A stretch of 64,000 bases of DNA, from assembly GCA_013415865.1 (NCBI GenBank), contig CP058896.1:1744316-1808315 (forward strand), in the 5' to 3' direction. Both the position numbers and the translations under genes were made by a program. This document shows, in pieces, positions 5,011-64,000 of the stretch. The DNA comes from Methanomassiliicoccales archaeon (GTDB lineage Archaea; Thermoplasmatota; Thermoplasmata; Methanomassiliicoccales; UBA472). How positions within the stretch are numbered: position 1 is the first letter of the stretch; every line of letters starts with the position of its first letter. A model generated the notes under the pieces. The model was not told where the DNA came from, did no database searches, and saw nothing but the letters and a program-made list of their open reading frames with translations.

Positions 5011-6174
5011 CCTTGTCTTGTCAAGGACCATGATGACGATCTGCTTGAACTCGTCATCGCTCACCCTCCCCTTCTTTTCTCCCAGATTCTTGACCTCGTT
5101 GAGGATGCGTGATAGCTGGTTGTCAGAGGCCTTCAGCCCAAGGTCCTCGACGCGTTTCTTCACATAGGTGAGGCCAGTGTGCTTGCCCATGAGGATATGT
5201 CTCCTGTTACCGACGGCCTCGGGAGGTATGCTCTCATAAGTCAATGGACACTCCAATATCGCAGCTACATGTATTCCCGATTCATGCGCGAAAACGTTCG
5301 GGCCTACCAAAGGTTGGTTCCTTGGCCTTGGTAGCCGGGAGTACTCCGCGACCAGATCGCAGAGCTGGGTCAGCTTTGAACAATCGATGCCAAGGTCGCA
5401 TCCGTACACGAATTTCATCACTGGCGCGAACTGCTCCAATGGAAGGTTGCCGGCCCTTTCCCCTATACCATTGACGGTGGTGGTCAAAGCGGTGGCACCG
5501 GCCTTGACCCCCGCGATGGCGTTTGCCAGCACAAGTCCATAATCATTATGCAGGTGCAGACCGATGGGGACCTTCACTGCCTTCCTCACCTCCGAGACGA
5601 TGTGAAAGATCGCCTCAGGGGACGCGCATCCAACTGTATCTGTCACACCTATCCTTGCCGCACCCGCCTCTTCCGCTTTTTTATATATCTGGATGAGAAA
5701 GTCAAGGTCAGTCCTTGTGCTGTCCTCTGCACTTAGAGAGGCCTTCACACCTCTTTCATGACAATAGTCGAGACCTTCTTGGACCTTCTCCAATAAGAAC
5801 TCCCTTGGTTTCTTGAACTTGTACTTCAAATGGATGTCGGATGTGGCTATGAACAGTAGGACCATATCCACGCCAGCATCGACGCAGCAATCGATATCCC
5901 CCTTTGTGATCCTTGAGAGGGTCAATATGTCCGCATCTAATCCCAGTGAGCATATCTCCTTGACCGTCCTTTGCTCGCTCTCGCATACAGCTGGAAACCC
6001 TGCCTCTATCTGATGGACCCCGATATCGTCAAGCTTTTCCGCGATCTCGATCTTCTGGTCCTGTGAGAAGGCCATGCCCGGCGTCTGTTCACCGTCCCTC
6101 AGGGTAGAATCATAGATGATGACGTCCTTGGCCTCGATCTTCGGGTTGTAAGGGCTCAACGCTATCTGTTGCAT
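5005..6174 (-). CDS. homocitrate / 2-isopropylmalate synthase family enzyme (short AksA/NifV-like form, no LeuA regulatory domain)
   Basis: HMGL-like motifs DSTLRDGEQ and HLHNDYGL..AN; about 390 aa. Start inferred at MQQIAL. The substrate cannot be called from sequence. Confidence 0.8.
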   Translation of the reverse strand: MQQIALSPYNPKIEAKDVIIYDSTLRDGEQTPGMAFSQDQKIEIAEKLDDIGVHQIEAGFPAVCESEQRTVKEICSLGLDADILTLSRITKGDIDCCVDAGVDMVLLFIATSDIHLKYKFKKPREFLLEKVQEGLDYCHERGVKASLSAEDSTRTDLDFLIQIYKKAEEAGAARIGVTDTVGCASPEAIFHIVSEVRKAVKVPIGLHLHNDYGLVLANAIAGVKAGATALTTTVNGIGERAGNLPLEQFAPVMKFVYGCDLGIDCSKLTQLCDLVAEYSRLPRPRNQPLVGPNVFAHESGIHVAAILECPLTYESIPPEAVGNRRHILMGKHTGLTYVKKRVEDLGLKASDNQLSRILNEVKNLGEKKGRVSDDEFKQIVIMVLDKTRS

Positions 6175-6255
6175 CGCACCGTCTAACCTGTACAGGGATA
6201 GATAAGCCTTGCCGAGGGAAAAGAAATTATCGCCGAAGAACATCTGGCGGATGAT

Positions 6256-6696
6256 ATGTCATCCCGCTCCACGTTCTTCAAGGTACAGCACGGGAAGATG
6301 GAAGTGAATGTGCCTTTCAAACTTTTTGAACCCGGTACCACGACCATCAGACCGACCGAGGCCGAGAAATTGAGGAAGCTCTTGAGGTCCCAGTATCCTT
6401 GGCTCTCAGACAATGCAGTGGATGTGATCCTTGTCAACGCCAAGGAAGAGATGGCAAGGATACTTGATTCAGGTAAGACTGCGGCCGACCGGGCCAGGGA
6501 TATGATACAAAAGGGCGAGCTGGAGAAGGCCTTGGGATTCCTTGAGGCACATCTCTTTATCAACGAGGACGACATCGACGCATGGTACCTCTGCGCTGAG
6601 GCCCTCATGAGGCTTGGCAAGAAGGATGAAGGGTTCGAGGCCATGCGCCATGCACGATCACTGGCTGAGAAGAAGGGGAAGATCGTACGAAGATGA
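6256..6696 (+). CDS. hypothetical protein with a TPR-like helical C-terminus
   Basis: 146-codon ORF. The C-terminal sequence AWYLCAEALMRLGKKDEGFEAMRHARSLAEKKG resembles one TPR unit. Confidence 0.4.
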   Translation: MSSRSTFFKVQHGKMEVNVPFKLFEPGTTTIRPTEAEKLRKLLRSQYPWLSDNAVDVILVNAKEEMARILDSGKTAADRARDMIQKGELEKALGFLEAHLFINEDDIDAWYLCAEALMRLGKKDEGFEAMRHARSLAEKKGKIVRR

Positions 6697-6701
6697 CGGT
6701 C

Positions 6702-7583
6702 TCATCTTTCAAAGAGCGCCCTGACCCCTCCCGCAACATCCTGGACCGTCGCCCCCCAAGGAACCGATGCGATGTTGCCTGAGATCTCATGGCCCTCCTT
6801 CACCTTGCAGCACTTGATCATGGTCGGGGTACCATCGTCCACAACGAGGTTCTTAGGGCAGATGTCTATGCAGGGGGCATCTCGGCCATAGACCGACCTG
6901 AAGATCCTCCTTGACAGGTCGCATCCTATGAGCGTGACATCTCCTTCAACAGCAGGGGTCTCATCCAGGTAATAGATCCTCTTTGAAGAGAAAAGGCCCG
7001 ATGCTCTGCACGGGAACATGACAGCATCCGTCTTTACAAGCCCCTCTTTCTGATTGAGGTCGATGTCAACCTGTTCGATGATGATGGGCAGTTCGACAAG
7101 CCCTGAGGACATGGCCTTTCGGACCAGGACCGAGAGCTTCGATGGGGTCGGTGGCACGACGTCGACCACCCTTAGGGTGAGCAGCTCATCCGCATGAAGG
7201 AATGAAACATGATTGAACATCCCTGAGACCACGACAGTAAGACCTCCATTTTCTTTGACCAGCTCGGCGAGCTCGGAAACATTGAGGACGTCGACACGTT
7301 CATCTTTTATGTATACAGTGTCCTTGGGGAGCGATATGACCTCGATGGAGGTTATTGGTCGGAATAGTTCCTTGCCTGGCCTCTTCAAGACCCTGACCAC
7401 GGCGACATTGTTCCCGTTCTTCAGCACCATGAACTCCGTCCTGGTGTAGGCGCTCTTCCCCTCCGCCATGGCCGTTATGTTCTCCATGGTAAGTTCGAAC
7501 TCCACCTCTCTGAAGGAGACATCTTTGCAGTGGTCGGGCATCATCAGGACCAGAACCGGTCCCCGATAATAAATATCATTCAT
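6702..7583 (-). CDS. conserved-looking hypothetical protein
   Basis: 293-codon ORF with normal composition and a Cys-containing C-terminus (CIDICP..KCCK). No family recognised. Confidence 0.5.
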   Translation of the reverse strand: MNDIYYRGPVLVLMMPDHCKDVSFREVEFELTMENITAMAEGKSAYTRTEFMVLKNGNNVAVVRVLKRPGKELFRPITSIEVISLPKDTVYIKDERVDVLNVSELAELVKENGGLTVVVSGMFNHVSFLHADELLTLRVVDVVPPTPSKLSVLVRKAMSSGLVELPIIIEQVDIDLNQKEGLVKTDAVMFPCRASGLFSSKRIYYLDETPAVEGDVTLIGCDLSRRIFRSVYGRDAPCIDICPKNLVVDDGTPTMIKCCKVKEGHEISGNIASVPWGATVQDVAGGVRALFER

Positions 7584-7654
7584 CGTGGATTGTAGGAAAG
7601 ACGGGACAAGTGTGATAATCTAGCACGACCATTCTGACCAGGCCGGGATGGGAT

Positions 7655-8575
7655 ATGTCAGAGGATCTTCAGGTCAGCGTCAGTACGATCAGGGAACGGT
7701 TGTTCACAGAAAGGCTCAGGGCTTTGCATCCTGAGGGCCTGAGCGCTTTTGAGGCTATGAAGCCCAGGTCCAGGTCAAAGTACATAGAGGACAATTGGGC
7801 CAGAATGTTCCCTCCTGTCGACCTCGCTCTCAGGAAGGTGGTCACGGGCCCGATCAAGCGTCTTGTAACGAAGGCGATGGGACCGGATGCCGATGAGGTG
7901 ATGCGCTCTCATTGGGAACCTCAGATCAAGGCCAAGATGCACAACACATTCGAGTTCTACATCATAATGCTCAGGTTCCATTCGTTCGCCAGGGCCAGCC
8001 TGGAAGAGCAGAGCAGGCTCCTTCTGAACTACTACCTGCTGCTGGTGGAAGGCGTCTATGCTGCACAGGTGAACCTCATATGCTATCTTTTGTCAAGAAC
8101 AGGGATCCCATATCGCTCTTCGAAGGCGATGTCGGAGCATAGCGCACCTGCCGGTTCTATGGGGGCCATCGAGGAGGACAGCCTTTGGAACAAGCTAAGA
8201 TTCATGGAGGATAATGGCCTCTCTTTTATGGTGGATGCATGCGACAGGCAGCTTCGTAACAGTGTGGCGCATCTGGATTTTATCGTATTCACGAACGGAT
8301 GTGTCGGCTATGGTGCGGGTCAACGAGGACCCAAGGTCATCAAGTATGAGGAGCTCGTGCATAAGGTGGAGGTCATGAAATCGATATCCGATGCCGTCAA
8401 CGAGGTCCTGGTCGAGGAGGTGACGGCCTGGCGCAAGGCCTCGAAGACCGTCCAGCAGAAGGCCGCGAAAAGACCGTCAAAGACAAAAAAAGAGATCAAG
8501 GACCCAGCCTCGGTCCTGAGGGCGGCAGCATTACAAAAGCCAAAGAAAAAGGATGAGGGAGAGGTCAGACTATAA
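7655..8575 (+). CDS. hypothetical helical protein with a HEPN-like R-x4-H motif and a Lys-rich tail
   Basis: 306-codon ORF. Contains LRNSVAHLDF (R201..H206, nt 8255-8272) in a predicted helical context, and the C-terminal tail KAAKRPSKTKKEIK..KPKKKDE. Confidence 0.5.
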   Translation: MSEDLQVSVSTIRERLFTERLRALHPEGLSAFEAMKPRSRSKYIEDNWARMFPPVDLALRKVVTGPIKRLVTKAMGPDADEVMRSHWEPQIKAKMHNTFEFYIIMLRFHSFARASLEEQSRLLLNYYLLLVEGVYAAQVNLICYLLSRTGIPYRSSKAMSEHSAPAGSMGAIEEDSLWNKLRFMEDNGLSFMVDACDRQLRNSVAHLDFIVFTNGCVGYGAGQRGPKVIKYEELVHKVEVMKSISDAVNEVLVEEVTAWRKASKTVQQKAAKRPSKTKKEIKDPASVLRAAALQKPKKKDEGEVRL

Positions 8576-8635
8576 AGCCCGAGAACCTTGTCCTTGGTCG
8601 GATAACTTGATATCTTACAATATGATTTAACGATA

Positions 8636-9523
8636 ATGAACAAGGGCCAAGTGGCCATCTTGGCCATGACGGGGGGCATAGTGGTCTTCATCATCAAGCT
8701 TGTCGCCTTCCTCGTCTCGGATTCCATAGCCCTTCTGTCCGATGCATTGGAGTCCATAATAAATATCGTCGCCTCGGGGATGTTGTTCGCTTCGATAAGG
8801 ATTGCAGAAAGACCTGCTGATAAGGAGCACCAGTTCGGACACCGTAAGGCAGAGAACATCTCATGTCTGATCGAAGGGATCTTGGTCCTGATGGCAGCGG
8901 TGTTCATCATCTATGCCAGCATCGGTAGATTGTTCAATCCGGTCACACTGAGAGATCTGGACCTGGCACTGCTCGTCTCTTTGTTCGCCACTGCTATCAA
9001 TGGCACCCTCTCATATGTTCTTGCCAGAGAATCACGAAGGACAGGATCGATCGCCCTCGAGGGGGATTCCAAGCATCTGTTGTCCGATGTCCTTTCCTCG
9101 TTGGGGGTGATTGTTGGATTGGCCATCGCTTCGTTCACCGGCCTCTTCTTCCTCGATTCCGTCCTTGCCTTCCTGGTCGGGGCCTTGATAATAAAGATGG
9201 GCTATGAGCTCATCAACAGGTCCTGCGGGGACCTCCTTGATATGCACTGCCCCTCTGTAGAGGAAAAGATAAGGGAGATCCTAGATAGGACCGATGGTCA
9301 CATCGAGTTCCATGAACTGAAGACAAGAAAGAGCGGGGACATGGTGTTCGTCACATTCCACCTTTGCGTCAATGGGGGGATGTCCGTCTACGAGTCGCAT
9401 GAGATAACGGAAAGGATCGAGAGCGAGCTGAAAAAGAGCTTCCCGGACCTCGAACTGACGATACATGTTGAGACCGAACACCAATCATGCCTTCATAAGA
9501 AAGGTCTGGACCCGGTCGAATGA
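8636..9523 (+). CDS. cation diffusion facilitator (CDF) metal efflux transporter
   Basis: TM2/TM5 metal-site motifs LLSDALESI and HLLSDVLSSLGV, plus a C-terminal cytoplasmic domain. Confidence 0.9.
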   Translation: MNKGQVAILAMTGGIVVFIIKLVAFLVSDSIALLSDALESIINIVASGMLFASIRIAERPADKEHQFGHRKAENISCLIEGILVLMAAVFIIYASIGRLFNPVTLRDLDLALLVSLFATAINGTLSYVLARESRRTGSIALEGDSKHLLSDVLSSLGVIVGLAIASFTGLFFLDSVLAFLVGALIIKMGYELINRSCGDLLDMHCPSVEEKIREILDRTDGHIEFHELKTRKSGDMVFVTFHLCVNGGMSVYESHEITERIESELKKSFPDLELTIHVETEHQSCLHKKGLDPVE

Positions 9524-9549
9524 TCTTAGTTCTCATCTTGGAATAAAGG

Positions 9550-9557
9550 TTTAATAT
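9550..9557 (+). promoter_or_regulatory. putative TATA box for tRNA-Cys
   Basis: TTTAATAT lies about 27 nt upstream of the tRNA 5' end, a typical archaeal spacing. Confidence 0.4.
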
Positions 9558-9582
9558 CTGGGATAGAATCAGCTACAACCAA

Positions 9583-9670
9583 GCCGGGATGACAGAGCGG
9601 CCATGTGGCAGACTGCAGCCCTAATGGCGGATATCTGCAGACCCGTGTTCAAATCGCGGTCCCGGCTCCA
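9583..9670 (+). tRNA. tRNA-Cys (GCA) with a 14-nt intron at 37/38
   Basis: Hand-folded. Acceptor GCCGGGA/TCCCGGC; anticodon stem GCAGA/TCTGC; loop CU-GCA-G[intron 9619..9632]A; T arm CCGTG-TTCAAAT-CGCGG; discriminator U73 (Cys identity base); encoded CCA. Confidence 0.9.
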
Positions 9671-9686
9671 ATTTTTCATCCAGGTC

Positions 9687-10733
9687 CTATCTCGTCCTAT
9701 CGCTCTCCCTTTTTCTGATCGCGTCCATGGCCCATCGCGCATGCTCTGCGAGATCCTCATCGACGCCCAGTACAAAAGGTTCTAGGGCGGCGATCGTGGA
9801 ACAATCGCCCGTATTTCCCAAGGCGATGATGGCATTTCTTTTTAACGTCCTTAGGGAAGGGCCATGCCAACGTAGAGAGGAGCATCGCCGCAAGTACTCC
9901 CTCTCGTCCATCTTGAGCAGTTCCAGCAACTTAGGAGCCATCCCCCATGGATGTGACCTTTGAGGACCCTCAACCTTCATCTTTACAAGCCCCTCATTCC
10001 GAGGACATACCTCCTGGCAGACATCGCAGCCGTCTATCCTGTCCTCTACCGCCTCCCTGAGCTCGATGGGTATTGGCCTTTCGGATGACAATACATAACT
10101 TAGGCATTTGGAAGGGTCGAGGACAAAGGGCTCCGGGATGGCCTTGGTGGGACACAATCTGATGCATCTTTGGCATGAACCACATCTTGGACCGATCTCT
10201 TCATCCGGCTCCAATTCCGCATCTGTCAGGACCACAGAATAGATGACCCAGGACCCCAGGTCCTCGTTCTGTATCAGGGTGTTCTTTCCAAACACACCCA
10301 CCCCAGAACGGCACACGGCGGGCTTTACGGGCACTCTAGGGTCCCAAAAAGCGTCGTGCCCCTCAGAACGGATCATCTCGATCATCTTGTCTCGCTTATA
10401 TTCTAGGTCAGCGTAGGTATCATCCCAATGATGCCTGGCGACCTTGCCCCGCGGGTCCCAAGGCTCTTTGGTCATCTCAGTACCCTCGTGATGGTACCTT
10501 AGGCCCAGGGCGATGATCGATCTTGCTTTAGGCATGATGCTCCTCGGGTCACATGATATCGACGTGTCGTTCAATGTGGGTTCTGCACGCCTCATGTCCG
10601 ATGGTACCTTACCTGCAAGGATCTCTTCGTCAGCGATCTTCTTGAACCTATCGAACCTTTCTACACCAGTTATGCCTACAAGGTCCAAACCCAGTTCGAT
10701 GCCGGCCTTCTTTACTTTAAAGGAATCTAACAT
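9687..10733 (-). CDS. epoxyqueuosine reductase (QueG)-like Fe-S protein
   Basis: GKNTLI, two ferredoxin-type motifs CGSCQRCIRLCP and CDVCQEVCPRN, and a C-terminal HEAT-like LKRNAIIALGN. Confidence 0.75.
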   Translation of the reverse strand: MLDSFKVKKAGIELGLDLVGITGVERFDRFKKIADEEILAGKVPSDMRRAEPTLNDTSISCDPRSIMPKARSIIALGLRYHHEGTEMTKEPWDPRGKVARHHWDDTYADLEYKRDKMIEMIRSEGHDAFWDPRVPVKPAVCRSGVGVFGKNTLIQNEDLGSWVIYSVVLTDAELEPDEEIGPRCGSCQRCIRLCPTKAIPEPFVLDPSKCLSYVLSSERPIPIELREAVEDRIDGCDVCQEVCPRNEGLVKMKVEGPQRSHPWGMAPKLLELLKMDEREYLRRCSSLRWHGPSLRTLKRNAIIALGNTGDCSTIAALEPFVLGVDEDLAEHARWAMDAIRKRESDRTR

Positions 10734-10886
10734 CTGATCGCAGAGAACATTCCTACGGTCCCGTTAATATCATTTTCAATTTATCTTCGTCAAATGAGTT
10801 AATTCGCCTTTTGTCAAATCCTTTATCATTGTTAACTGTCTTTATGCTACCAAAGCCCCTGACCAGATGATGTGGGAGGCACCAAG

Positions 10887-11798
10887 ATGAGATTCAATAG
10901 CATACTTGATACCATAGGCAGGACCCCTATCGTGAGGCTCAACAGAACAGTTACTGAAGGCTATGCTGAGGTCTATGTCAAGATGGAGTCATTCAATCCC
11001 ATGCACTCTGTCAAGGACAGGGTCGCTCTGGCTTTGATCGAGGATGCTGAAAAAAGAGGCGTCCTCCGGCCAGGGATGTGCGTGGTCGAGCCGACATCTG
11101 GCAATACAGGCATCGGTCTGGCAATGGTGTGCGCGGCAAAGGGCTACAGGCTCATATTGACGATGCCTGAGAACATGAGCTCGGAGAGGCGCAAGCTCTT
11201 GAGCGCGATGGGGGCGGGGGTCATCCTGACGCCGGCATCGGAAGGGATGTCCGGCGCCGTCATGAAAGCGAAAGAGATATGCTCATCCTCACCTGACCAT
11301 TTCATCCCCCAGCAGTTCGAGAACCAAGCAAATGTCGAGATACATTATAGGACCACGGCGGAAGAGATCCTGGCGGATATGCCAGATATCGACCTATTCG
11401 TTGCTGGTATAGGTACTGGAGGAACGATAACGGGAGTGGGGAAGGCTCTGAAGGAGAAAAAGCCTGGGACATGGGTCGTCGGCATCGAACCTGCAGGCTC
11501 CCCCGTGCTGGGAGGAGGTAGACCAGGCCCTCATAAGATACAAGGTATCGGTGCTGGTTTTAAGCCAAAGATCTTCGACCGAAAGTATGTAGATTGGATA
11601 TTGACGGTCAAAGACGAGGACGCATATAGGTGGGCCAGGAAGATCGCGAGAGAGGAGGGCATCTTGGTGGGGATCTCAGGAGGGGCGGCGCTCTCTGCAG
11701 CGATGGAGATGGCCAAGGACCTGCCTGGAAAAAAGATCTTGGCCCTGATTCCCGACTCTGGAGAAAGATATTTAAGCACCGATCTGTTCAACGAGTAG
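10887..11798 (+). CDS. cysK: cysteine synthase A (O-acetylserine sulfhydrylase)
   Basis: PLP lysine motif NPMHSVKDR, plus TSGNTG and GTGGT loops. GGGAGG lies 7 nt upstream of ATG 10887. Confidence 0.9.
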
Positions 11799-11803
11799 GT
11801 CCT

Positions 11804-12451
11804 ATGAGCTGGAGGGAGGCAGTACAGACCGTCCTCGAAAGGGACCCGGCCGCGAAGTCCTATATGGAGGCCCTGCTTTTCAGTCCAGGCCTGCATGCCA
11901 TCCTCATCCACAAGATATCGCACAAACAATATCTGAAAGGTCACATACGTCTTGCGAGGGCGATCAATTATCTCGGCCGTTTCCTGACGGGTGCGGACAT
12001 CCATCCAGGGGCCACGATAGGCAAAGGGTTCTTCATCGACCACGCGGTCGGTGTCGTGATCGGAGAGACGGCGGTCATCGGTGAGAACGTATCGTTGTTC
12101 CAGGGCGTGACCCTGGGCGGTGTGAGCACCAGCAAGGGCAAACGCCATCCGACCATTGGCAATAATGTGACGATCGGGGCAGGAGCGATCGTTCTGGGCA
12201 ATATCACTGTCGGCGACAATGTCAAGATCGGTGCGGGGTCGGTCGTCGTCAAGGACGTACCACCGAACTCCACCGTGGTGGGAGTGCCAGGCAAGGTGAT
12301 CAAAAGGGAGGGTGCGGTGGTAAAGACAGACCTCCGCCATGATGAGCTACCGGACCCCCTCCGTGATGCCATCATGGACCTGACCAATCAAATATCAGAA
12401 CTGGACCATCGGATAGCCATGTTGGAAGAGCGCCTCAAAAAGGAAAAATAA
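11804..12451 (+). CDS. cysE: serine O-acetyltransferase
   Basis: SATase N-terminal helices and hexapeptide repeats ([30 protein letters not shown]). ATG 11804 lies 5 nt after the cysK stop. Confidence 0.9.
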
Positions 12452-12481
12452 GTTGAACATCATCACATGCCGGGCGCGACC

Positions 12482-13879
12482 ATGACATTGGAGATATACA
12501 ATACCCTGACCAAAAGGACAGAGGAGTTCATCCCGATCGATGACAAGAAGGTCAGGATGTACGTGTGCGGCGTCACCGTCTATAATGACATCCATATGGG
12601 CCATGCGCGCTCGATCATCGTGTTCGACATGGTCGCCAGGTACCTGAGGTACAAAGGTTATGAGGTGAAGCATGTCACGAACTTCACCGACGTTGACGAT
12701 AAGATCATCAACAAGGCCAACGAGATGGGCATGGACCCCCTGGCGCTCTCGAAGATGTATATAGAACATTACTTTGAGGACCTTCAGAAGCTCGGTGTCA
12801 AAAGCGCTGACATCTACCCTAAGGCCTCTGAGAGCATAGATGACATAATAAGGATGGTCCAGAAGATAATCGATGCCGGATATGGGTATGTGGCAGAGGA
12901 CGGCAGCATCTACTTCAGCGTTGAAAGGTTCAAGGACTATGGTAAGCTCTCCGGGAACAAGCTTGAAGATATGTTGGCCGGGGCCAGGATCGAGGTGGAC
13001 GAGACGAAGAGGAGCCCGGTCGACTTCTGCCTTTGGAAGGCCGCAAAGCCAGGGGAGGTATCCTGGGACAGCCCCTGGGGGAAGGGAAGGCCGGGCTGGC
13101 ATATCGAGTGCTCTGCCATGGTCTATCGTCACCTCGGGGAGACGTTGGACATACATGGAGGAGGCAACGACCTGATATTCCCTCATCATGAGAACGAGAT
13201 CCTCCAGTCGGAGGCGGTCACAGGAAAGCCGTTGGCAAAATATTGGATGCATAACGGCATGCTCCAGGTGGAGGGGGAGAAGATGTCAAAGTCCCTGAAG
13301 AACTTCTTCACGGTCAGGGACGTCATGCAGCATTATTCTACACAGGAGGTCAGGTTCTACTTCCTGAACACGCATTATAGAGGTCCTTTGACCTATAGCG
13401 AGGACGCTTTGAACGAGGCTGCCGCCGCCCTGCGGAGACTGCAGCACACCTATATGGAGCTCAGGGACCACCTAGAGTCGGCATCAGGTAACTATGACGC
13501 CGACGACCTGGTAAAAAGGACGAGAGCGGAGTTCATCGAGCACATGGACGATGACCTCAATACAAGAGGGGCGATATCGGTGCTGTTCGAGCTTGCTAGG
13601 GAGAGCAACAAGCTCATGCATCATGACCTGTTGAGCAAGAAGGGCACCAGATGCATCATGGCATTGTTCGAGGAGTTCGACACGATACTAGGGATATTAC
13701 CTACTCTGGAGAAGGACGCCGACCAGCTCGATGATGTGATGGAGGTCATAATAGCCGTAAGGCAGGAGCTCCGAAAGAGGAAGCTCTATGACCTGGCCGA
13801 CAAGATCAGGGATGACCTCAAGCAGAAGGGGATAATGCTCGAGGACACGGTGGACGGGGTCAAATGGAGAGCGGAATGA
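12482..13879 (+). CDS. cysS: cysteinyl-tRNA synthetase
   Basis: HIGH-type HMGHARS and KMSKS motifs, N-terminus IYNTLT, WHIECS. The start could also be 12467. Confidence 0.95.
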   Translation: MTLEIYNTLTKRTEEFIPIDDKKVRMYVCGVTVYNDIHMGHARSIIVFDMVARYLRYKGYEVKHVTNFTDVDDKIINKANEMGMDPLALSKMYIEHYFEDLQKLGVKSADIYPKASESIDDIIRMVQKIIDAGYGYVAEDGSIYFSVERFKDYGKLSGNKLEDMLAGARIEVDETKRSPVDFCLWKAAKPGEVSWDSPWGKGRPGWHIECSAMVYRHLGETLDIHGGGNDLIFPHHENEILQSEAVTGKPLAKYWMHNGMLQVEGEKMSKSLKNFFTVRDVMQHYSTQEVRFYFLNTHYRGPLTYSEDALNEAAAALRRLQHTYMELRDHLESASGNYDADDLVKRTRAEFIEHMDDDLNTRGAISVLFELARESNKLMHHDLLSKKGTRCIMALFEEFDTILGILPTLEKDADQLDDVMEVIIAVRQELRKRKLYDLADKIRDDLKQKGIMLEDTVDGVKWRAE

Positions 13880-14901
13880 GCCCGGCGGAGAAAAAGGCGA
13901 TATTGATAGCAGGGGGGACGGTCCGCTTACCGAGGGACCTTCACCTACCATTCAAGCCAAGCCGGTCGACCGCTGGGCCCGGTGCAGGCTCCGTCTCGGT
14001 CGTCATCAGCTTTGAGGGAGTGAGGGTCAAGAAGGCAATATCAAGAGAGAAGGGCGAGTTCCAGCTCGTCGAAGGGCCGGATGGTCTGAGGATGTTGTGG
14101 CAAGGGAGGCCTTTCATCGAGCATGTCGACCTGCAACCGACGATCTACCATAGCCCCGAGCAGGCGTTCATCAATCTCCACCAGGAATGCATCTATGATT
14201 GCAAGTTCTGCACATCTCCTAGGTTGCCAAGGGATGTGACCAAAGGTCTTGACAAAAAGAAGGTCATGCGCATGGTCGAGCAGGTCGTCGGAAGAGATGA
14301 CCTGAAGTGCGTTTCCATCACCTCCGCGGTCGTCGGGAGCCCAGAGAGGACCGTCGACGAGTTGGTGGAGGTCGTGAGGATGATAAGGGGCCTTATAGGA
14401 CCCGATATGCCGATAGGTGTAGAGCCTTATGTGTCGAGGTTGGATGACATCGACAGACTTAAAGAGGCCGGGGCGACGGAGATCAAGATAAACATCGAGA
14501 CCTGGGACCGAGAGATATTCAGGAAGGTCTGCGGTGATATGGATATCGATTGGATACTCCAGGCACTGAGGCACGCGGTGAAGGTGTTTGGAAGATGGAA
14601 GGTGACCACAAATATCATCTTTGGCCTAGGGGAGACGGATGAGAACGTGCTCGAGGCGGTAGAGGAGCTCGTCGAGATGGGGGTGGTACCATCGTTGAGG
14701 CCGCTGAGGGTCAACGATATCAACAGGGGACCGCTCATCGAGGCTTTAGGGGCCATTGCCCCAGTGACACCAGAGAGGATCTTACGGCTCAGCATCGCTG
14801 CGAAGGAGATCTATCGGAAACATGGGACCGGTCCAATGCAATACTCCACCATGTGCCATGCCTGTAAATGTTGCGACATCGTCCCCTTTGCCGATATCTG
14901 A
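13876..14901 (+). CDS. radical SAM protein of unknown specificity
   Basis: CIYDCKFC (Cx3Cx2C), TIM-barrel-like core, and a C-terminal CHACKCCD cluster. ATG 13876 overlaps the cysS stop (ATGA). Confidence 0.8.
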   Translation: MSPAEKKAILIAGGTVRLPRDLHLPFKPSRSTAGPGAGSVSVVISFEGVRVKKAISREKGEFQLVEGPDGLRMLWQGRPFIEHVDLQPTIYHSPEQAFINLHQECIYDCKFCTSPRLPRDVTKGLDKKKVMRMVEQVVGRDDLKCVSITSAVVGSPERTVDELVEVVRMIRGLIGPDMPIGVEPYVSRLDDIDRLKEAGATEIKINIETWDREIFRKVCGDMDIDWILQALRHAVKVFGRWKVTTNIIFGLGETDENVLEAVEELVEMGVVPSLRPLRVNDINRGPLIEALGAIAPVTPERILRLSIAAKEIYRKHGTGPMQYSTMCHACKCCDIVPFADI

Positions 14902-15021
14902 CCTCATGAAAAAGATTTAGGTCATCTCCTTTTCCTTCGGACCAGGATGTAGTCCAGAGCCTTAGGGTCACCCTTTCAAGATTTTAGGTCCCCTACATAT
15001 TTAGTTTTAGGCAGACCAAAA

Positions 15022-15029
15022 TTTATATA
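15022..15029 (+). promoter_or_regulatory. putative TATA box of the dtxR-feoB operon (near-leaderless)
   Basis: TTTATATA is centred about 28 nt upstream of ATG 15054. It is flanked upstream by three TTTAGG-containing repeats. Confidence 0.45.
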
Positions 15030-15053
15030 GCTCCCGTCTCTCTCGAATAATTG

Positions 15054-15740
15054 ATGGTCAGCGAGAACGTCGAAGAATACCTCGAATGCCTTTGGGAGCT
15101 TTCGCAGGATGGGCGTCCTGTAAAGACCAAGAATATTGCAAAGAAAATGAACGTCTCCCCGGCCAGCGTCACAGAGATGATGCAGAGGCTTTCTGAAGCG
15201 GGCTATGTGAAATATGAGAAATACAAAGGGACGACACTTACTGACGAGGGCCATAGGATCGGGGCAAGGATAAAGAGGAAGCACCGGCTCCTCGAAAGGT
15301 TTCTGGTCGATGTCCTCGGTCTTGATAAAGGGGAAGGTCATGAGGAGGCGTGCCGTCTTGAGCACACATTATCGGACGAGAGCGAGAAGCGGATCTGCCA
15401 GATGATGAACAATCCCAAGACCTGCCCGGACGGTGACCCTATACCTGAATGCAATGAGGACTGTACGCTCTGCGCTTCTGAACCTTCAATACCTTTGACC
15501 GAGGTCGAGAGGGGCGAAAAGGTGAAGATCACACACCTGGTCTGTGACGATGCGATCAAAATGCGAAGGATAATCTCCATGGGGATAGTCCCTGGGAGGA
15601 CCCTTTGCGTCGAGGACAGGCTCCCGATGGGCGGCCCGATACTTCTTTCCATACAGGACTCGAAGATCGCTCTGGCGAGGGACTATGCCTCGATGGTCCA
15701 CGTGACCTTGGCCGGAGAGTGCGAAAAGCGTTGGGCCTAG
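15054..15740 (+). CDS. iron-dependent repressor, DtxR/IdeR family, with a C-terminal FeoA/SH3-like domain
   Basis: N-terminal wHTH (EEYLECLWEL..NIAKKMNVSPASVTEMMQRL), dimerisation/metal domain (RKHRLLERFL), and a C-terminal FeoA-like domain. Confidence 0.9.
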   Translation: MVSENVEEYLECLWELSQDGRPVKTKNIAKKMNVSPASVTEMMQRLSEAGYVKYEKYKGTTLTDEGHRIGARIKRKHRLLERFLVDVLGLDKGEGHEEACRLEHTLSDESEKRICQMMNNPKTCPDGDPIPECNEDCTLCASEPSIPLTEVERGEKVKITHLVCDDAIKMRRIISMGIVPGRTLCVEDRLPMGGPILLSIQDSKIALARDYASMVHVTLAGECEKRWA

Positions 15741-52066: not shown

Positions 52067-53512
52067 TCAGTTCAGGTCGTCCTTTGTCCAGACCTCGATG
52101 CCCGTCGGCTGCTTGGTGATGTTGCCCATCTTGGTACCGACGATGGTGGCGATCTCCTTCTCCGCAGCGATATCTAGTATCCTCTGGGTGATGATGCCGT
52201 CGAACACGACGGAGGAGATCTTGGCGGTCTCGGCCTTAAGGGTGTTTACGAGCTCTTTCACCGCCACCTCTTTGACCTCGCCAGCATCATCGATGATCTT
52301 CGCCTTAGATGTGGTGAGGAGCTCATTGATCATGTTCTTGAACTTCTCCTGGTTCTCAGACAATTTCTTCGATGGGCGGCGCGGCTCGGGCGTCTCTATT
52401 GCACGCTCAGCACGGTCCTGCTTCTCCGCACGCTCTTCCCTGGGCTGGCGCTCAGCACGGTCCTGGCGTTCCTGTCTCTCCTTGCGCTCTGGCCGCTGCT
52501 CCATGCGCTCGGCCCTCTCCTCGCGCTGCTCTTTGGGCTGGCGCTCGGCCCGCTCCGGTCTTTCCTGTGCCTTCTCTTCCAGCTCGGCAGCGGCCCTCTC
52601 GGCCTTCTCCTGGCGCTCAAAGCGCTCCAGCCGGTCGGCCTTCTCGCTGCGCTCAGACTTTCCGTTCTGACCGTCCGTCTCGATGCCGAACATCTCGATG
52701 AACTGTTCACCAGGGATCTTGTTCCTGAGGCACTTCATTATCTGCTTCTGGGTCAGCTCTTCGACCTCATGGGCCCTTGGCGCCCTTGCGACGAAGTCCA
52801 CCTCTGCCACCTGGAACAGCTCGCGCAGTATCAGCTCCCCGCCCCTGTCACCATCGACGAAGGCTGTGACGACACGCTCCTTCGAAAGGTCGCTGATGGT
52901 CTTGGGGATGTTTGTACCTTCGACCGCAATAGCGTTCTTTATCCCAGACTTCAAAAGGTTGAGGACATCGCTCCTTCCCTCGACCACTATGATCGCATCA
53001 GAGTCCACGACATTCGGTCCTGCCGGAAGGCGGTCCTTGCCATAATAGATGATCTCCTCCACCTGAACTGATTGCCTGACGCTCTCGGTAAGGTCCACCC
53101 CCGTGGTCTTCGAGACCTTGATGAGCTCGGTCAAGAGCTCCTTCGCGCGGTCGATTATCTTAGCACGTTTCGTCACCCTCACGTCCTCTATCGACTCGAT
53201 CGCGATCTTTGCCTTGCAAGGCCCTACGCGGTCTATCGTCTCAAGTGCGGACGCGAGTATGACGGTCTCGACCTGGTCGAGACTTGAAGGTATCAATATC
53301 TCTCCTTCGGACTTGCCTTGCTTCGAGTGGACGTCGACCTCGATCCTCCCTATCCTGCCGCTCTTCTGCAGGTCCCTGAGGTCGAGCTCGTCACCCAGAA
53401 GTCCTTCGGTCTGTCCGAAGATAGCACCGACGACATCAGGCTTCTCCACGATACCGTCTGCGTTGAGCCTGGCCTTAATAAGGTACTTCGTGGTGCTTGG
53501 GTCTATGTTCAT
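52067..53512 (-). CDS. dnaG: archaeal DnaG (Toprim primase / exosome-associated protein)
   Basis: N-terminus [32 protein letters not shown] and Toprim [17 protein letters not shown]. Confidence 0.9.
52373..52660 (-). repeat. Glu/Arg/Gln-rich low-complexity repeat inside dnaG (aa about 285-380)
   Basis: [76 protein letters not shown]. At the DNA level, imperfect direct repeats such as GCGCTCAGCACGGTCCTG occur at about 52396 and 52447. Confidence 0.85.
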
Positions 53513-57368: not shown

Positions 57369-57455
57369 GCCGAGGTAACCAAGCCCGGTATGGTGGTAGT
57401 CTCGAAAACTACTGGGAACCCTCCCTCGGGAGTTCAAATCTCCCCCTCGGCGCCA
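57369..57455 (+). tRNA. tRNA-Ser (CGA)
   Basis: Hand-folded. Acceptor GCCGAGG/CCTCGGC; D arm ACCA-AGCCCGGTA-TGGT; anticodon stem GTAGT/ACTAC with loop CT-CGA-AA; long variable arm GGGA-ACCC-TCCC; T arm GGGAG-TTCAAAT-CTCCC; discriminator G; encoded CCA. Confidence 0.92.
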
Positions 57456-60711: not shown

Positions 60712-60778
60712 GCGGCCATTACGATGACCCCTGGACAAACGGTAAATATTGAATGCTCGTAGGATAGGTCCGATAAGA

Positions 60779-62068
60779 ATGAGCTACAGGGTCGCCGACC
60801 AGGCTTTCAAGGACCTATTCGGTCCGTTAGAAGCAGGGGAGCTCACGGCCACGAACCCCTGCGTGCTCTGTAAAGGCTCCAAGAACCTCTGTGGAAAAGA
60901 AAGATGCTCCCTCATGGTCAAGTACTATGCCCATCAGAGGACGAGGCCGCTGATAGACTCCTTAGAGCTGTCAGGGAGCAGTCCACCTGGTGTCTTCGTC
61001 GGCAGATATGGTTATCCCAAGGTGGACGTCGGGCCGCTCGTCCCTCCCGACCTTGGCGACACGGGGTTCATGGACACGCCGGAGGAATGGGTCGGCCGCC
61101 CGATCGAGGACATAGTGGAATTCCGATTCCGCCTGGTGAGGGGCAAGTTCAAGGTCTCGGTCAAGGACTTTCAGAACGCCGGGAGGATGATGGACCTCAC
61201 AAGGGACCTTGCATTGTCCATCAATTCCGTCGACGTGGAGGCGAACTTCAGCAAGAGGCCCTCTGGAAAGATAGTATTGGACGATGAGATCCAGCCTTTC
61301 GGACCGAGCGCGGCCCTCAAGGACTTCGAGATATCCAACCCTAAGTATGACCATAAGGTTGAGAAAGCGTATTATGACACGGACCTCAGCGCGGTCGAGG
61401 CGGTGACATCGCTCTACAAGCAAGGCGTATTGATCTCAAAGCTGCAAAAGGCCTTCAGCGTAGGGGCCTTCGGCATAGAGAGGAACAGGAGGCTGGTCCC
61501 GACCCGTTGGAGCATCACCGCCGTCGACGACACGTTGGGTAAAGATCTATTGAAGACCACCAAGACCTTCCCGCAGATCTCGGAATGGAGGGTCTATGAC
61601 TGGGACCAGCTCGACAACAGATGGTCGGTCCTATTGATGCCGACCTCGTGGAGGTATGAGCTCATCGAGGCGTGGTACCCCAACACGGCATGGAACCCGC
61701 TCGGCAGACAGATAGAGGTCATCTCGTCGCACGAGTTCTATGATGGCAGGAGGGAGTATGCAGAGATCGGGGGCTGCTACTACGCGGCCAGGCTTGCGGT
61801 CAATGAACTTCTGATGAGGGAGAGGAGGACCGCGGGGGCAGTGATCTTCAGGGAGGCGCATCCCGGTTACATCATGCCCGTAGGGGTCTGGAACGTCAGA
61901 GAGAATGTGAGGAGGGCATTGATGCAGAGGCCATCGAACTATAATAGCCTGAACGAGGCGATGTTGCATATAGGCCGGCGCATGGACATACCGGTCAGAA
62001 GATGGCTCTCGGCCAGCGAGGTGCTAAAGGACTACCTGCGACAAAGGAGGATCGATGACTATTCTTGA
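60779..62068 (+). CDS. nreA: NreA-like (archaeal Nre family) putative DNA-repair protein
   Basis: N-terminal CVLCKGSKNLCGKERC; length about 430 aa. The extreme C-terminus QRRIDDYS resembles a degenerate PIP box. The family call is from memory of the Nre N-terminal and C-terminal domains. Confidence 0.55.
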   Translation: MSYRVADQAFKDLFGPLEAGELTATNPCVLCKGSKNLCGKERCSLMVKYYAHQRTRPLIDSLELSGSSPPGVFVGRYGYPKVDVGPLVPPDLGDTGFMDTPEEWVGRPIEDIVEFRFRLVRGKFKVSVKDFQNAGRMMDLTRDLALSINSVDVEANFSKRPSGKIVLDDEIQPFGPSAALKDFEISNPKYDHKVEKAYYDTDLSAVEAVTSLYKQGVLISKLQKAFSVGAFGIERNRRLVPTRWSITAVDDTLGKDLLKTTKTFPQISEWRVYDWDQLDNRWSVLLMPTSWRYELIEAWYPNTAWNPLGRQIEVISSHEFYDGRREYAEIGGCYYAARLAVNELLMRERRTAGAVIFREAHPGYIMPVGVWNVRENVRRALMQRPSNYNSLNEAMLHIGRRMDIPVRRWLSASEVLKDYLRQRRIDDYS

Positions 62069-62888
62069 CCTCGACCTTTTCTTTGACGATGGCGAGAGGA
62101 AAGGGCCGCCGTCCGTCAAGGTCTATGAGGCGAAGGCATCGACCGCCCTGTCGAAGAGCAGCCTGCCAGGACTGGATTTTTGTCTGAACCCCTATATCGG
62201 ATGCGAGCACGGGTGCATATACTGCTTCGCACCGGACGTCGTAAGGAGGCAAAGGGAGACATGGTCGAGCGAGGTGGGATACCGGTCGAACATCCCTGTG
62301 CTGTTGAACAGGGAGCTCAGGACAAAGAGGGGCACGATAGGCATAGGAACGGTAACCGACCCCTACCAGCCTCTTGAGAGGCTGTTGCTTCTGACAAGGA
62401 AGTGCCTGCTGGAGATAGCGAGGCACGACAACCCCATCTCCATCCTGACGAAGTCGGACCTTGTGCTGAGGGATATCGAACTTATCAGGTCCACCGCGAG
62501 GCCGGAGGTCGGGGTGACCATAACGACCATGGACGCGGACCTGGCATCGAGGATCGAACCGAAGGCGTCACCGCCTGTCGCCAGGGTTGAGACTTTGAGG
62601 AGATTGGCCGATTCCGGGATCGAATGCTATGCGATGGTCGGCCCTGTGCTCCCTTTCCTTGAGCAACAGGAGATAAGAGAACTTCTCGGAGCGATCGCGG
62701 CCACCGGGTGCAAGAGGGTCATGGCGGACAGGTTGAGGATGAGGCCGGGGCTTGAGATGGCCTTCCTGACGGCGAACATTGTCAGGAGCAAGGGCGTATT
62801 GAGCGACCCCTACAGGGCGGAGATGTCGGTCAGGCTTGTAAGGGACGAATGCACCAGAATGGGGATGAGGTTCGAGACAGCGTTCTAG
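62055..62888 (+). CDS. radical SAM protein, SplB / 'DNA repair photolyase'-like
   Basis: NPYIGCEHGCIYCFA (Cx3Cx2C). ATG 62055 overlaps the nreA-like end by 14 nt. Confidence 0.75.
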   Translation: MTILDLDLFFDDGERKGPPSVKVYEAKASTALSKSSLPGLDFCLNPYIGCEHGCIYCFAPDVVRRQRETWSSEVGYRSNIPVLLNRELRTKRGTIGIGTVTDPYQPLERLLLLTRKCLLEIARHDNPISILTKSDLVLRDIELIRSTARPEVGVTITTMDADLASRIEPKASPPVARVETLRRLADSGIECYAMVGPVLPFLEQQEIRELLGAIAATGCKRVMADRLRMRPGLEMAFLTANIVRSKGVLSDPYRAEMSVRLVRDECTRMGMRFETAF

Positions 62889-62891
62889 GTC

Positions 62892-64000
62892 TCACTCTGG
62901 AACGAACATTCCCAGGCCGAAATGCGATGCGTAACCTATGGCGAAGGGCCCCTGCACCTCTTTTTCGAACTCGATCCTGAACCCCATTCCATATCTTTCT
63001 TGTTCTCCCCTTCGGGACCTCTTGAACTCATACCATTTGACCTGTCGCGACCCTTTTCGAAGGAACGGAATCGGTTGTATCCTGACAGGCGCAGGGAGAC
63101 CGGCATTCTCACATTCTCGTTTCAGCTGTTCCGCTATCCATTCATCGAATGGTCCACGCCCCTTCCGGTAATAATGTGATGGAACAAAAGGGGTCGCACT
63201 CTGAAATGTTTTACAACTTTTAGAGACAGAGGTCCTGTTATGTGCCCCCCATTCTATCGGGACCAAGCTGATGTCCCCCCGACCTCCAGGCTGATATAGG
63301 GCTGTCAATCTGTCGAGGATGTTCATCTCGTCCTCAGTGAAAGGTTCTCTCGACATTATTAAAAGATGGTCCAGCAATAGGTCATCATCCATGTCCAATG
63401 GCAGTATGTAAACATGCCTGTGACCTGTTATAGGAGATCCATCGCTCTTTTTTCCACTGAATTTGTAAGAGATGGAATCTTCCCCGAACATGGCCTTATT
63501 AATGCCCATCAACCTCACATGGACCTGATTGGTGATTTCCAGGCTTTTTGTCATATTAGGTCTAAGGTCCGATTGAAGCTTATAGAGGACAGCATTGGCC
63601 CTTTCATATCTTTTTATTCCATGATTCGCAAGTCCATCCTCAGGGTCTGGGACTAAATAATTAATAAATGTTAACAAAGGAGGGCGAGCATCACCCCTTT
63701 TTATCATCAGGTCCGTACCATATGTGAGGTTTGTCAACCATCCGCTCGTTCCATCATATGGTTTAACACATGCGACCCTGGAATATCTAAAATTAGGATC
63801 AAGGGTTCCCATACAATCCACAGGTGCTGAGTTCCAGGTCATAACCTTATTTTCAACGAGGCTGGCCTCCACCCAGGATTCTGACCTGCCAAGATAGTTG
63901 AGGTTTTCAAGGAGCTCTGAAAGAACCTCACGTTGCGTCGAGTCTAATTCCGCTCTTTCCCAAATCATCACGCAAGCTTCACTGGGCTCGACCACAACAA
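62892..64000 (-). CDS. csb2: Csb2-like CRISPR-associated protein (type I-G/I-U Cas5-Cas6 fusion), N-terminus outside the window
   Basis: NYLGRSESWVEA, GHRHVYILPLDMDDDLLLDHLLI and the C-terminal Gly-rich RAMP loop ASHFGLGMFVP match my memory of the Csb2/GSU0054 family. The reading frame stays open to the window edge. Confidence 0.55.
   Translation of the reverse strand, partial: VVVEPSEACVMIWERAELDSTQREVLSELLENLNYLGRSESWVEASLVENKVMTWNSAPVDCMGTLDPNFRYSRVACVKPYDGTSGWLTNLTYGTDLMIKRGDARPPLLTFINYLVPDPEDGLANHGIKRYERANAVLYKLQSDLRPNMTKSLEITNQVHVRLMGINKAMFGEDSISYKFSGKKSDGSPITGHRHVYILPLDMDDDLLLDHLLIMSREPFTEDEMNILDRLTALYQPGGRGDISLVPIEWGAHNRTSVSKSCKTFQSATPFVPSHYYRKGRGPFDEWIAEQLKRECENAGLPAPVRIQPIPFLRKGSRQVKWYEFKRSRRGEQERYGMGFRIEFEKEVQGPFAIGYASHFGLGMFVPE

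What the first reader, a model, noticed from the sequence alone, without database searches (positions are those of the whole stretch)
62892..64000. Csb2-like type I-G (I-U) Cas5-Cas6 fusion at the window edge, with no adaptation genes or array on the visible side
The motifs YLGRSESWV and GHRHVYILPLD..D...DHLLI, together with the terminal Gly-rich loop HFGLGMFVP, fit the Csb2 family as I remember it. The frame is still open at position 64000, so the N-terminus and any upstream cas7u, cas8u or cas3 genes lie outside the window. In canonical I-G loci csb2 is followed by cas4-cas1, cas2 and the array. Here the next gene is a convergent radical SAM gene only 3 nt away, and no repeat array occurs anywhere in the 64 kb. 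This could be an effector-only or otherwise rearranged CRISPR-derived system.
Basis: partly seen in the sequence, partly recalled or inferred. Interest (0 to 1): 0.65.

Follow-up and report, generated by a model that had tools for sequence, protein, structure and literature searches.

The report
Ordinary complete type I-G CRISPR-Cas locus
The gene fragment at the window edge is the last gene of a complete, already annotated type I-G CRISPR-Cas immune locus of a deep-aquifer methanogen; the "missing" adaptation genes and the array start lie just beyond the window, so it is ordinary.

Summary
Window 62892-64000 (-) encodes the C-terminal 368 aa of Csb2, the Cas5-Cas6 fusion that marks type I-G. 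It ends 3 nt from a convergent radical SAM gene, and the 64 kb hold no array.

The "effector-only / CRISPR-derived" reading does not hold. A public contig identical to the window over 6,574 bp continues past position 64000. It shows csb2, cas7g, cas8g1/csx17 and cas3g on the minus strand. Upstream and divergent lie cas4g-cas1g and cas2. All six pass NCBIfam's curated cut-offs at full length.

After cas2 come a conserved leader and one 36-nt repeat, 33/36 identical to the repeat of the closest relative, which has at least 23 copies at that spot. The divergent gene order recurs in relatives that carry arrays.

Only one repeat is visible. That contig is a k=31 de Bruijn assembly, which cannot spell out an array of 36-nt repeats. 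The source genome, Methanomassiliicoccales MAG Ch47 (one unclosed 1.82-Mb contig), is broken exactly between cas2 and the next gene. An array most likely sits in that gap (about 2:1). A truly emptied array is not excluded.

GenBank already names these proteins (QLH75575.1, "type I-U Cas5/Cas6"). Interest is low.

The parts
62892..64000 (-). csb2 (cas5-cas6 fusion), C-terminal 368 codons plus stop. This is the only part of the locus inside the window.

The remaining parts lie beyond position 64000 on the identical contig L001 (window position = L001 position + 57426):
- csb2, full gene: L001 5466-6875 (-)
- cas7g/csb1: 6928-7905 (-)
- cas8g1/csx17: 7918-10341 (-)
- cas3g: 10341-12791 (-)
- AT-rich divergent intergenic region: 12792-13028
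- cas4g-cas1g: 13029-14651 (+)
- cas2: 14665-14952 (+)
- leader: 14953-15125 (+)
- the single visible 36-nt repeat: 15126-15161 (+)

The next gene, an ABC ATPase, starts at L001 15303 and is the first gene of the GenBank record.
   Evidence: csb2. TIGR02165 scores 149.9 bits against a cut-off of 45 over profile 1-492 for the 469-aa protein. The protein is identical to GenBank QLH75575.1, 'type I-U CRISPR-associated protein Cas5/Cas6'.

Off-window parts: contig identity, 0 mismatches in 6,574 bp; family cut-offs passed by all six genes; leader and repeat; GenBank names and accessions.

Best explanation
The fragment is the 3' end of csb2, the last gene of the effector operon of a complete type I-G (formerly I-U) CRISPR-Cas locus. 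The locus lies in the Methanomassiliicoccales MAG Ch47, from a 2.8-km-deep Siberian aquifer.

Shown here: the locus is a roughly 9.7-kb low-GC island. It holds cas3g-cas8g1(csx17)-cas7g-csb2 on one strand and, divergently, cas4g/cas1g-cas2 followed by a leader and a 36-nt repeat. All six genes are full length and pass curated family cut-offs.

Inferred, from the characterised Thioalkalivibrio sulfidiphilus system (PMC9638904): the Cas6-like C-terminal domain of Csb2 cuts the pre-crRNA 4 nt 3' of the 7-bp repeat hairpin. This leaves an 8-nt 5' handle (here ATTGAAxx), and Csb2 stays on the 3' hairpin. Cas7g coats the guide and Cas8g1 supplies the large- and small-subunit functions. Cas3g, associated with the complex, unwinds and degrades matching DNA. 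Cas4-Cas1 and Cas2 insert new spacers at the leader-repeat junction.

The array itself is most probably in the one gap that the MAG assembly left open, between cas2 and the ABC transporter gene. I put this at about 65%.
For: Continuation of the window:
- A Logan contig is identical to the window over 6,574 bp and extends it.
- All six cas families score above NCBIfam's curated cut-offs with end-to-end alignments. PADLOC places all six among its type I-G models.
- Cas3 has the I-G domain order, helicase then HD.
- No other ORF of 90 aa or more lies in the operon, so there is no separate cas5, cas6 or cas11.

Leader, repeat and gene order:
- The leader is conserved. One repeat is 33/36 identical to the 23-or-more-copy array repeat of the closest relative, at the same place after cas2.
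- The repeat geometry (7-bp stem, then 4 nt plus an 8-nt handle) matches the characterised I-G repeat.
- The same divergent order occurs in L006, L017, L031, L051 and L002+L008, with an array after the adaptation genes wherever that side is in view.
- In 29 of 29 GTDB I-G loci where the adaptation module lies at the locus edge with at least 700 bp beyond it, an array follows within 1.5 kb.

Source genome:
- GenBank already annotates the proteins as type I-U Cas5/Cas6, Cas7, Csx17, Cas3', Cas1 and Cas2.
- MAG Ch47 is one contig of 1.82 Mb that is not flagged as closed.
- The ABC ATPase that follows cas2 has the accession just before HPY73_00010, the record's second gene. Cas7, Cas1 and Cas2 carry the highest accession numbers seen. 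The record therefore starts just before the ABC gene and most probably ends after cas2, so the only gap falls at the expected array site.
- Logan contigs never contain a duplicated 31-mer: 0 in 15 loci totalling 103 kb. Contigs that carry arrays hold 9-227.
Against: Only one repeat copy is visible. Its last two bases (AA instead of GC) and its first base differ from the relatives' consensus.

In other samples, Logan contigs of related loci often stop inside the first repeat instead of running through it. A contig that runs leader-repeat-trailer could therefore reflect a real single-repeat genotype.

No array was found in 57 kb on one side (the window, from the MAG assembly). None was found in 20 kb on the other side either, but that is Logan sequence and uninformative. 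I could not read the ends of the GenBank record or any reads.

No interference or adaptation activity has been tested for this locus.
Confidence: 0.9

Rival explanations
1. The locus is a complete I-G locus whose array has really been reduced to leader plus one repeat. In vivo recombination between the first and the terminal repeat would produce this. The result is an intact but unarmed system: it can still acquire spacers but currently makes no guide.
For: The 51.6-kb Logan contig runs without a break from cas2 through the leader, one repeat and 141 nt of unique sequence into the ABC gene. The repeat is a hybrid type: family consensus over bases 2-34 with a degenerate 3' end, as a first x terminal repeat recombinant would look. 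Related Logan contigs often break at the first repeat when an array is present.
Against: An in-silico collapse of an array gives exactly the same sequence. A k=31 contig cannot contain two 36-nt repeats. The MAG's only unclosed gap is at this very spot, which a unique single repeat would not cause. All cas genes are intact, and 29 of 29 comparable loci have arrays.
Confidence: 0.3
2. One reading: an effector-only or CRISPR-derived system that has lost adaptation genes and array and been put to another use, perhaps together with the neighbouring radical SAM gene.
For: Within the window there is no cas1, cas2 or array, and the rSAM gene abuts csb2. Some I-G loci in GTDB genomes do show effector genes with no adaptation genes in view (15 of 80).
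Against: cas4-cas1, cas2, a leader and a repeat lie 5.6-8.3 kb beyond the window edge on a contig identical to the window. The rSAM gene lies outside the low-GC island. It belongs with the overlapping Nre gene as a conserved chromosomal pair. It is absent next to csb2 in L006.
Confidence: 0.02
3. The locus is decaying, with cas pseudogenes left after loss of the array.
For: Only a single, slightly degenerate repeat is visible.
Against: Every cas ORF is uninterrupted. Lengths match the relatives: 469/471/482, 325/332, 807/809/815 and 816/836/815 aa. Each aligns end to end with its family profile.
Confidence: 0.03

Closest known systems
Type I-G CRISPR-Cas of Thioalkalivibrio sulfidiphilus HL-EbGr7 (Shangguan et al. 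2022, NAR 50:11214, PMC9638904)
   Same: It has the same gene set: Csb2, Cas7, Cas8g1/Csx17, Cas3, Cas4-Cas1 and Cas2, with no cas11, cas5 or cas6 gene. Both have a 36-nt repeat with a 7-bp stem and 12 nt after it, that is, 4 nt plus an 8-nt handle. An invariant C-terminal histidine (H460 in HFGLG) sits where that paper places the catalytic His (H503, at the C-terminus); this correspondence is inferred, not aligned.
   Different: This one is archaeal rather than gammaproteobacterial. Here the adaptation module is divergent and upstream of cas3. In T. sulfidiphilus, five genes including toxin-antitoxin pairs lie between csb2 and cas4-1. No biochemistry has been done on this locus.
Geobacter sulfurreducens GSU0051-GSU0054 locus, the founding members of the TIGRFAM/NCBIfam models (cas3_GSU0051, cas7_GSU0053, cas5_6_GSU0054)
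   Same: The proteins here pass the curated cut-offs of exactly these models.
   Different: The canonical order csb2, cas4-cas1, cas2, array on one strand is seen in 51 of 80 surveyed loci but is not used here. That the Geobacter locus has this canonical order is from my own knowledge, not tested.
Methanomassiliicoccales/Thermoplasmata I-G loci from metagenomes: L002+L008 (JGI 3300063078), L006 (NCBI/JGI MAG), L017 (OW818644.1)
   Same: They show the same divergent architecture, the same repeat family (CTAACCAGGT.TAA..CGACCTGGC.C.ATTGAAGC) and a related leader. L002/L003 also have the same chromosomal neighbours, rSAM and Nre.
   Different: Proteins are only 45-69% identical to those of L002/L008, against 82% for the flanking Nre. 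The relatives show 13 to 23 or more repeats; here one is visible.

Membership tests
Type I-G (I-U) CRISPR-Cas | The signature gene csb2, a Cas5-like N-terminal domain fused to a Cas6-like C-terminal domain | tested here: met
   TIGR02165 (an equivalog model) scores 149.9 bits against a cut-off of 45, with residues 1-469 aligned to profile 1-492. PADLOC Cas56g gives E=4e-115. The window fragment alone scores 98.5 bits.
Type I-G (I-U) CRISPR-Cas | Cas7g/Csb1 backbone subunit adjacent to csb2 | tested here: met
   TIGR02570 scores 84 bits against a cut-off of 38, and PF09617 hits.
Type I-G (I-U) CRISPR-Cas | Cas8g (Csx17) large subunit, with no separate cas11, cas5 or cas6 gene | tested here: met
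   TIGR04113 Cas8g1/Csx17 scores 491.7 bits against a cut-off of 150. No ORF of 90 aa or more in L001 5400-15462 is unaccounted for, apart from ORFs nested in the cas genes on the opposite strand.
Type I-G (I-U) CRISPR-Cas | Cas3g with the helicase N-terminal and the HD nuclease C-terminal | tested here: met
   TIGR02621 scores 746 bits against a cut-off of 400. cas3_core covers residues 198-434 and cas3_HD covers residues 612-746.
Type I-G (I-U) CRISPR-Cas | Cas4-Cas1 fusion plus Cas2 as the adaptation module | tested here: met
   NF049935 cas4g_cas1g scores 724.6 bits against a cut-off of 560, full length. TIGR01573 cas2 scores 40.9 bits against a cut-off of 24.5.
Type I-G (I-U) CRISPR-Cas | An adjacent CRISPR array of about 36-nt palindromic repeats with an 8-nt 5' handle | tested here: inconclusive
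   A conserved leader and one repeat of the right family and fold are present. A second repeat cannot be seen, because the only sequence available past cas2 is a k=31 contig and the GenBank record is broken there.
Type I-G (I-U) CRISPR-Cas | Catalytic histidine in the Cas6-like domain (H503 in T. sulfidiphilus Csb2) | tested here: inconclusive
   H460 in the C-terminal HFGLG motif is invariant in 16 of 16 aligned members. I could not align it with the T. sulfidiphilus sequence, which was not retrievable. No relative is in the PDB.
Type I-G (I-U) CRISPR-Cas | crRNA-guided DNA interference with a TTN PAM, and spacer acquisition | not testable with these tools
   This needs spacers, protospacers or experiments. 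No spacer of this genome is visible.

The most novel reading that the evidence does not exclude
The dominant genotype of this deep-subsurface methanogen carries a fully intact type I-G system whose array has been reset to leader plus a single hybrid repeat. It would have zero spacers, so it would be an adaptation-competent but memory-less CRISPR locus maintained in a slow-growing aquifer population.
Probability: 0.25. Interest if true: 0.3.

Novelty: already known. Interest (0 to 1): 0.08.

Why it matters
It matters little biologically. This is one more standard type I-G locus, and the public record already annotates it as such.

Its value is methodological, in three ways:
- A cas gene cut by a window edge looked like an orphan effector only because the adaptation module sits on the far side of the operon, in divergent orientation.
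- "No array" seen in a k=31 de Bruijn (Logan) contig carries no weight, because such contigs cannot contain repeated 36-mers.
- A MAG contig end that coincides with the expected array site is itself a hint that an array is there.

If the array were truly reduced to one repeat, the locus would be a natural example of a spacer-less but intact system. That would be mildly interesting for the dynamics of CRISPR memory loss.

Tried and rejected
Searches that found nothing or could not be run:
- An exact 40-mer from the window end was not found in genome contigs, metagenome contigs or viral contigs. The contig could not be extended that way.
- The first homologue search returned nothing above 55% identity, although the identical protein is in the collection.
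I reached it through a homologue search instead.
- The 1.8-Mb NCBI contig is listed as carrying the proteins, but the position index does not return it. I could not read the record's ends.
- A search for the variant repeat end (...TTGAAAA) in metagenome contigs found nothing.
- Pfam has no hit for Csb2, and the PDB has no sequence relative.

Checks that proved negative or inconclusive:
- A relaxed array scan flagged window 52441-52617. It is a degenerate coding repeat in a 481-aa ORF, not an array.
- I tried to compare one locus in Logan and non-Logan assemblies. One search returned no Logan place. and 61/63 showed Logan contigs either stopping in the first repeat or carrying at most one spacer. 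This is informative but not decisive.
- L116 (ENA) shows repeat, then spacer, then what looks like mobile-element sequence. I take it to be a likely assembly chimera, so single-repeat pictures occur as artefacts in other assemblers too.

Idea rejected:
- A functional link between the rSAM gene and csb2. The rSAM gene lies outside the low-GC island, overlaps Nre, and is absent in L006.

Full report
**1. The observation**

The minus-strand frame from 62892 to the window end is open.

NCBIfam's equivalog model for Csb2 (TIGR02165, cas5_6_GSU0054) matches at E=5e-28. The score is 98.5 bits against a curated cut-off of 45, starting at profile position 114. PADLOC's Cas56g model matches at E=2e-69 from position 102. 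The fragment therefore lacks about 100 N-terminal residues. Pfam has no model that hits it.

In an alignment of 16 family members, the quoted motifs are the invariant columns of the family.

The radical SAM ORF at 62055-62888 (+) is real. It belongs to the PA0069/Rv2578c family and ends 3 nt from the csb2 stop.

The 64 kb contain no CRISPR array. One relaxed hit at 52441-52617 is a degenerate repeat inside a coding ORF.

**2. What lies beyond the edge**

Exact 40-mer searches of the three DNA collections found nothing. An exact look-up of the complete neighbouring rSAM protein did find a 51,556-bp contig of the Logan assembly of run SRR6186653. Its overlap with the window is 6,574 bp with no mismatch, so it is the same genome. 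Window position = L001 position + 57426.

Past position 64000 it carries, in L001 coordinates:

| Feature | L001 position | Strand | Size |
|---|---|---|---|
| csb2 | 5466-6875 | - | 469 aa |
| cas7g | 6928-7905 | - | 325 aa |
| large subunit | 7918-10341 | - | 807 aa |
| cas3 | 10341-12791 | - | 816 aa |
| AT-rich spacer | 12792-13028 | | 237 nt |
| cas4-cas1 fusion | 13029-14651 | + | 540 aa |
| cas2 | 14665-14952 | + | 95 aa |

All six pass NCBIfam's curated cut-offs for the type I-G families with end-to-end alignments:

| Protein | Model | Bits | Cut-off |
|---|---|---|---|
| Csb2 | TIGR02165 | 149.9 | 45 |
| Cas7g | TIGR02570 | 84 | 38 |
| Cas8g1/Csx17 | TIGR04113 | 491.7 | 150 |
| Cas3g | TIGR02621 | 746 | 400 |
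| Cas4g/Cas1g | NF049935 | 724.6 | 560 |
| Cas2 | TIGR01573 | 40.9 | 24.5 |

PADLOC agrees. Cas3 has the I-G domain order, with the helicase core at residues 198-434 and the HD domain at 612-746. No further ORF of 90 aa or more sits in the operon, so there is no separate cas5, cas6 or cas11.

The cas region is a sharply bounded island of about 45% GC between flanks of 55-60%.

**3. Leader and repeat**

The 350 nt between cas2 and the next gene, an ABC ATPase starting at L001 15303, are not empty.

They align with the leaders of three related loci in conserved blocks. At the conserved leader-repeat junction, L001 15126-15161, they carry GTAACCAGGTTTAATACGACCTGGCCCAATTGAAAA.

This sequence is 33/36 identical to the repeat of the closest relative, which has at least 23 copies directly after its cas2 (L008). 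It is 28/36 identical to the repeat of L006, which has 13 copies. By my estimate, 28 of 36 matches by chance somewhere in about 146,000 positions has an expectation of about 6e-6.

It is the only copy within 12 mismatches in the window and in 30 kb of extension.

It folds into a 7-bp stem with a 6-nt loop and a 12-nt tail. That is the geometry described for the characterised type I-G repeat. There, Csb2 cuts 4 nt 3' of a 7-bp stem and leaves an 8-nt handle (PMC9638904).

**4. Is the gene order unusual?**

I surveyed 80 I-G loci from GTDB species representatives.

| Arrangement | Loci |
|---|---|
| Canonical csb2, adaptation genes, array on one strand | 51 |
| Divergent upstream arrangement, as here | 3 |
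| Adaptation genes upstream on the same strand | 2 |
| Effector genes followed directly by an array | 12 |
| Neither adaptation genes nor array in view | 3 |
| Contig too short to tell | 9 |

The metagenomic relatives L006 and L002+L008 also have the divergent upstream order. The closest relative keeps the same chromosomal neighbours, rSAM and Nre. Its Nre is 82% identical, against 45-69% for the cas proteins.

The arrangement is therefore a recurrent minor variant inherited in this lineage. It is not a sign of a derived system.

In 29 of 29 loci where the adaptation module lies at the edge of the locus with at least 700 bp beyond it, an array follows within 1.5 kb.

**5. One repeat or an array?**

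The Logan contig runs from cas2 through the leader, one repeat and 141 unique nt into the ABC gene, and on for 20 kb without an array.

This absence carries no weight. None of 15 Logan loci (103 kb) contains a single duplicated 31-mer, whereas JGI/NCBI contigs with arrays contain 9-227. A k=31 de Bruijn contig cannot spell two 36-nt repeats.

Related Logan contigs behave in one of two ways. Some stop inside the first repeat. Others run leader, repeat, one spacer, degenerate terminal repeat, trailer.

The visible repeat matches the family consensus at bases 2-34 and deviates at base 1 and the last two bases. A join between a first and a degenerate terminal repeat would look like this, whether made in the cell or in the assembler.

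Provenance of the source genome:
- The proteins are in GenBank as QLH75570-QLH75577 and QLH75764-QLH75766, from a 1,818,180-bp contig of "Methanomassiliicoccales archaeon".
- The sample is the 2.8-km borehole 5P aquifer in Western Siberia.
- Its only Methanomassiliicoccales MAG, Ch47, is listed as one contig of 1.82 Mb without the "(C)" flag for closed genomes (PMC7509429).
- The ABC ATPase that follows cas2 is QLH73991, and the permease after it is HPY73_00010, the second gene of the record.
- Cas7, Cas1 and Cas2 carry the highest accession numbers seen.

The single open gap of this hybrid Illumina/Nanopore assembly therefore falls exactly between cas2 and the ABC gene. By chance this would happen about once in 1,800 genes. 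A unique single repeat would not break an assembly; an array, especially one heterogeneous in the population, would.

I put the odds at about 2:1 that a real array lies in that gap. A truly spacer-less genotype is not excluded.

**6. Mechanism**

Shown:
- gene content and gene integrity
- family membership
- the leader
- the repeat sequence and its fold

Inferred from the T. sulfidiphilus work (PMC9638904):
- The C-terminal Cas6-like domain of Csb2 processes the pre-crRNA and stays on the 3' hairpin. It carries the invariant H460 in HFGLG, probably the counterpart of the catalytic H503.
- Cas7g forms the backbone.
- Cas8g1 provides the large subunit and a Cas11-like C-terminal bundle.
- Cas3g is a stable part of the complex and degrades the target.
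- Cas4-Cas1 and Cas2 add spacers at the leader-proximal repeat.

**7. Verdict**

The adaptation genes, and at least the start of the array, are simply on the other side of the operon, 5.6-8.6 kb beyond the window.

The locus is a standard type I-G system in a known minor gene order, already annotated in GenBank. Novelty: already known. Interest: low.

Noticed in passing
window 57369-57455 (tRNA-Ser CGA); L001 position 1 = window 57427: The 51.6-kb Logan contig ends inside the tRNA-Ser(CGA) gene, while the window (the MAG assembly) runs through it. This is probably a k-mer shared with other tRNA genes or organisms, but a tRNA is also a classic integration site.
   Followed up: no
window 60749-62068 (Nre, 439-aa ORF; 429 aa as called) and 62055-62888 (rSAM): An NreA-type gene (PF04894/PF04895) overlaps a PA0069/Rv2578c-family radical SAM gene by 14 nt. 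The pair is conserved next to the cas island in the closest relative (L002/L003; Nre 82% identical, rSAM 66%). It looks like a conserved two-gene unit, unrelated to CRISPR.
   Followed up: partly
L007 17500-20117 (about 8 kb past cas2, outside the window): Two tandem 276-aa serine recombinase genes (Resolvase + Recombinase domains) overlap by 8 nt, beside a patch of 35-45% GC. More than 3,200 homologues score E<1e-30, and many named ones come from Methanomassiliicoccales MAGs. This may be a mobile element or invertase pair.
   Followed up: no
L007 800-10640 against its flanks (starts at window 62892): The whole cas locus is a sharply bounded low-GC island (41-49% in 500-nt windows) between flanks of 55-62%. 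This suggests horizontal acquisition or a distinct mutational regime.
   Followed up: partly
L116 10860-11511 (ENA k141 contig, Bryobacterales-type I-G locus): After cas1 and the leader there is one repeat, and the contig then runs straight into a minus-strand gene (Lar_restr_allev family). This is probably a chimera in which the assembler walked from a spacer into the matching mobile element. The Logan contig of the same locus (L118) stops inside the repeat.
   Followed up: partly
L116-L118 and L121, between csb2 and cas2: Two MazE-like genes and a PemK toxin gene lie between csb2 and the adaptation genes. This recalls the toxin-antitoxin pairs reported at the same place in the T. sulfidiphilus I-G locus (PMC9638904).
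   Followed up: no
L020, L022, L024, L029 and many other Bryobacterales/Acidobacteriota loci: In these bacterial I-G loci cas2 precedes cas4-cas1. In the archaeal and several other loci the order is cas4-cas1 then cas2. This is a clade-specific inversion of the order within the adaptation module.
   Followed up: no
L006 1429-3066: In this Methanomassiliicoccales relative the Cas4-Cas1 fusion is called as two ORFs (286 + 196 aa) separated by 186 nt. This is probably a frameshift or assembly error, although a 13-repeat array is present.
   Followed up: no
L017 2655-3600 and 11687-12700 (OW818644.1): The best GTDB relative (Csb2 47% identical) has two arrays of the same repeat family in opposite orientation, one on each side of the cas genes. 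A second array elsewhere in the Ch47 genome is therefore conceivable.
   Followed up: no
window 52336-52655: There are imperfect 45-93-nt-spaced direct repeats inside a 481-aa minus-strand ORF (52067-53512). The encoded protein is repetitive; this is not a CRISPR array.
   Followed up: partly
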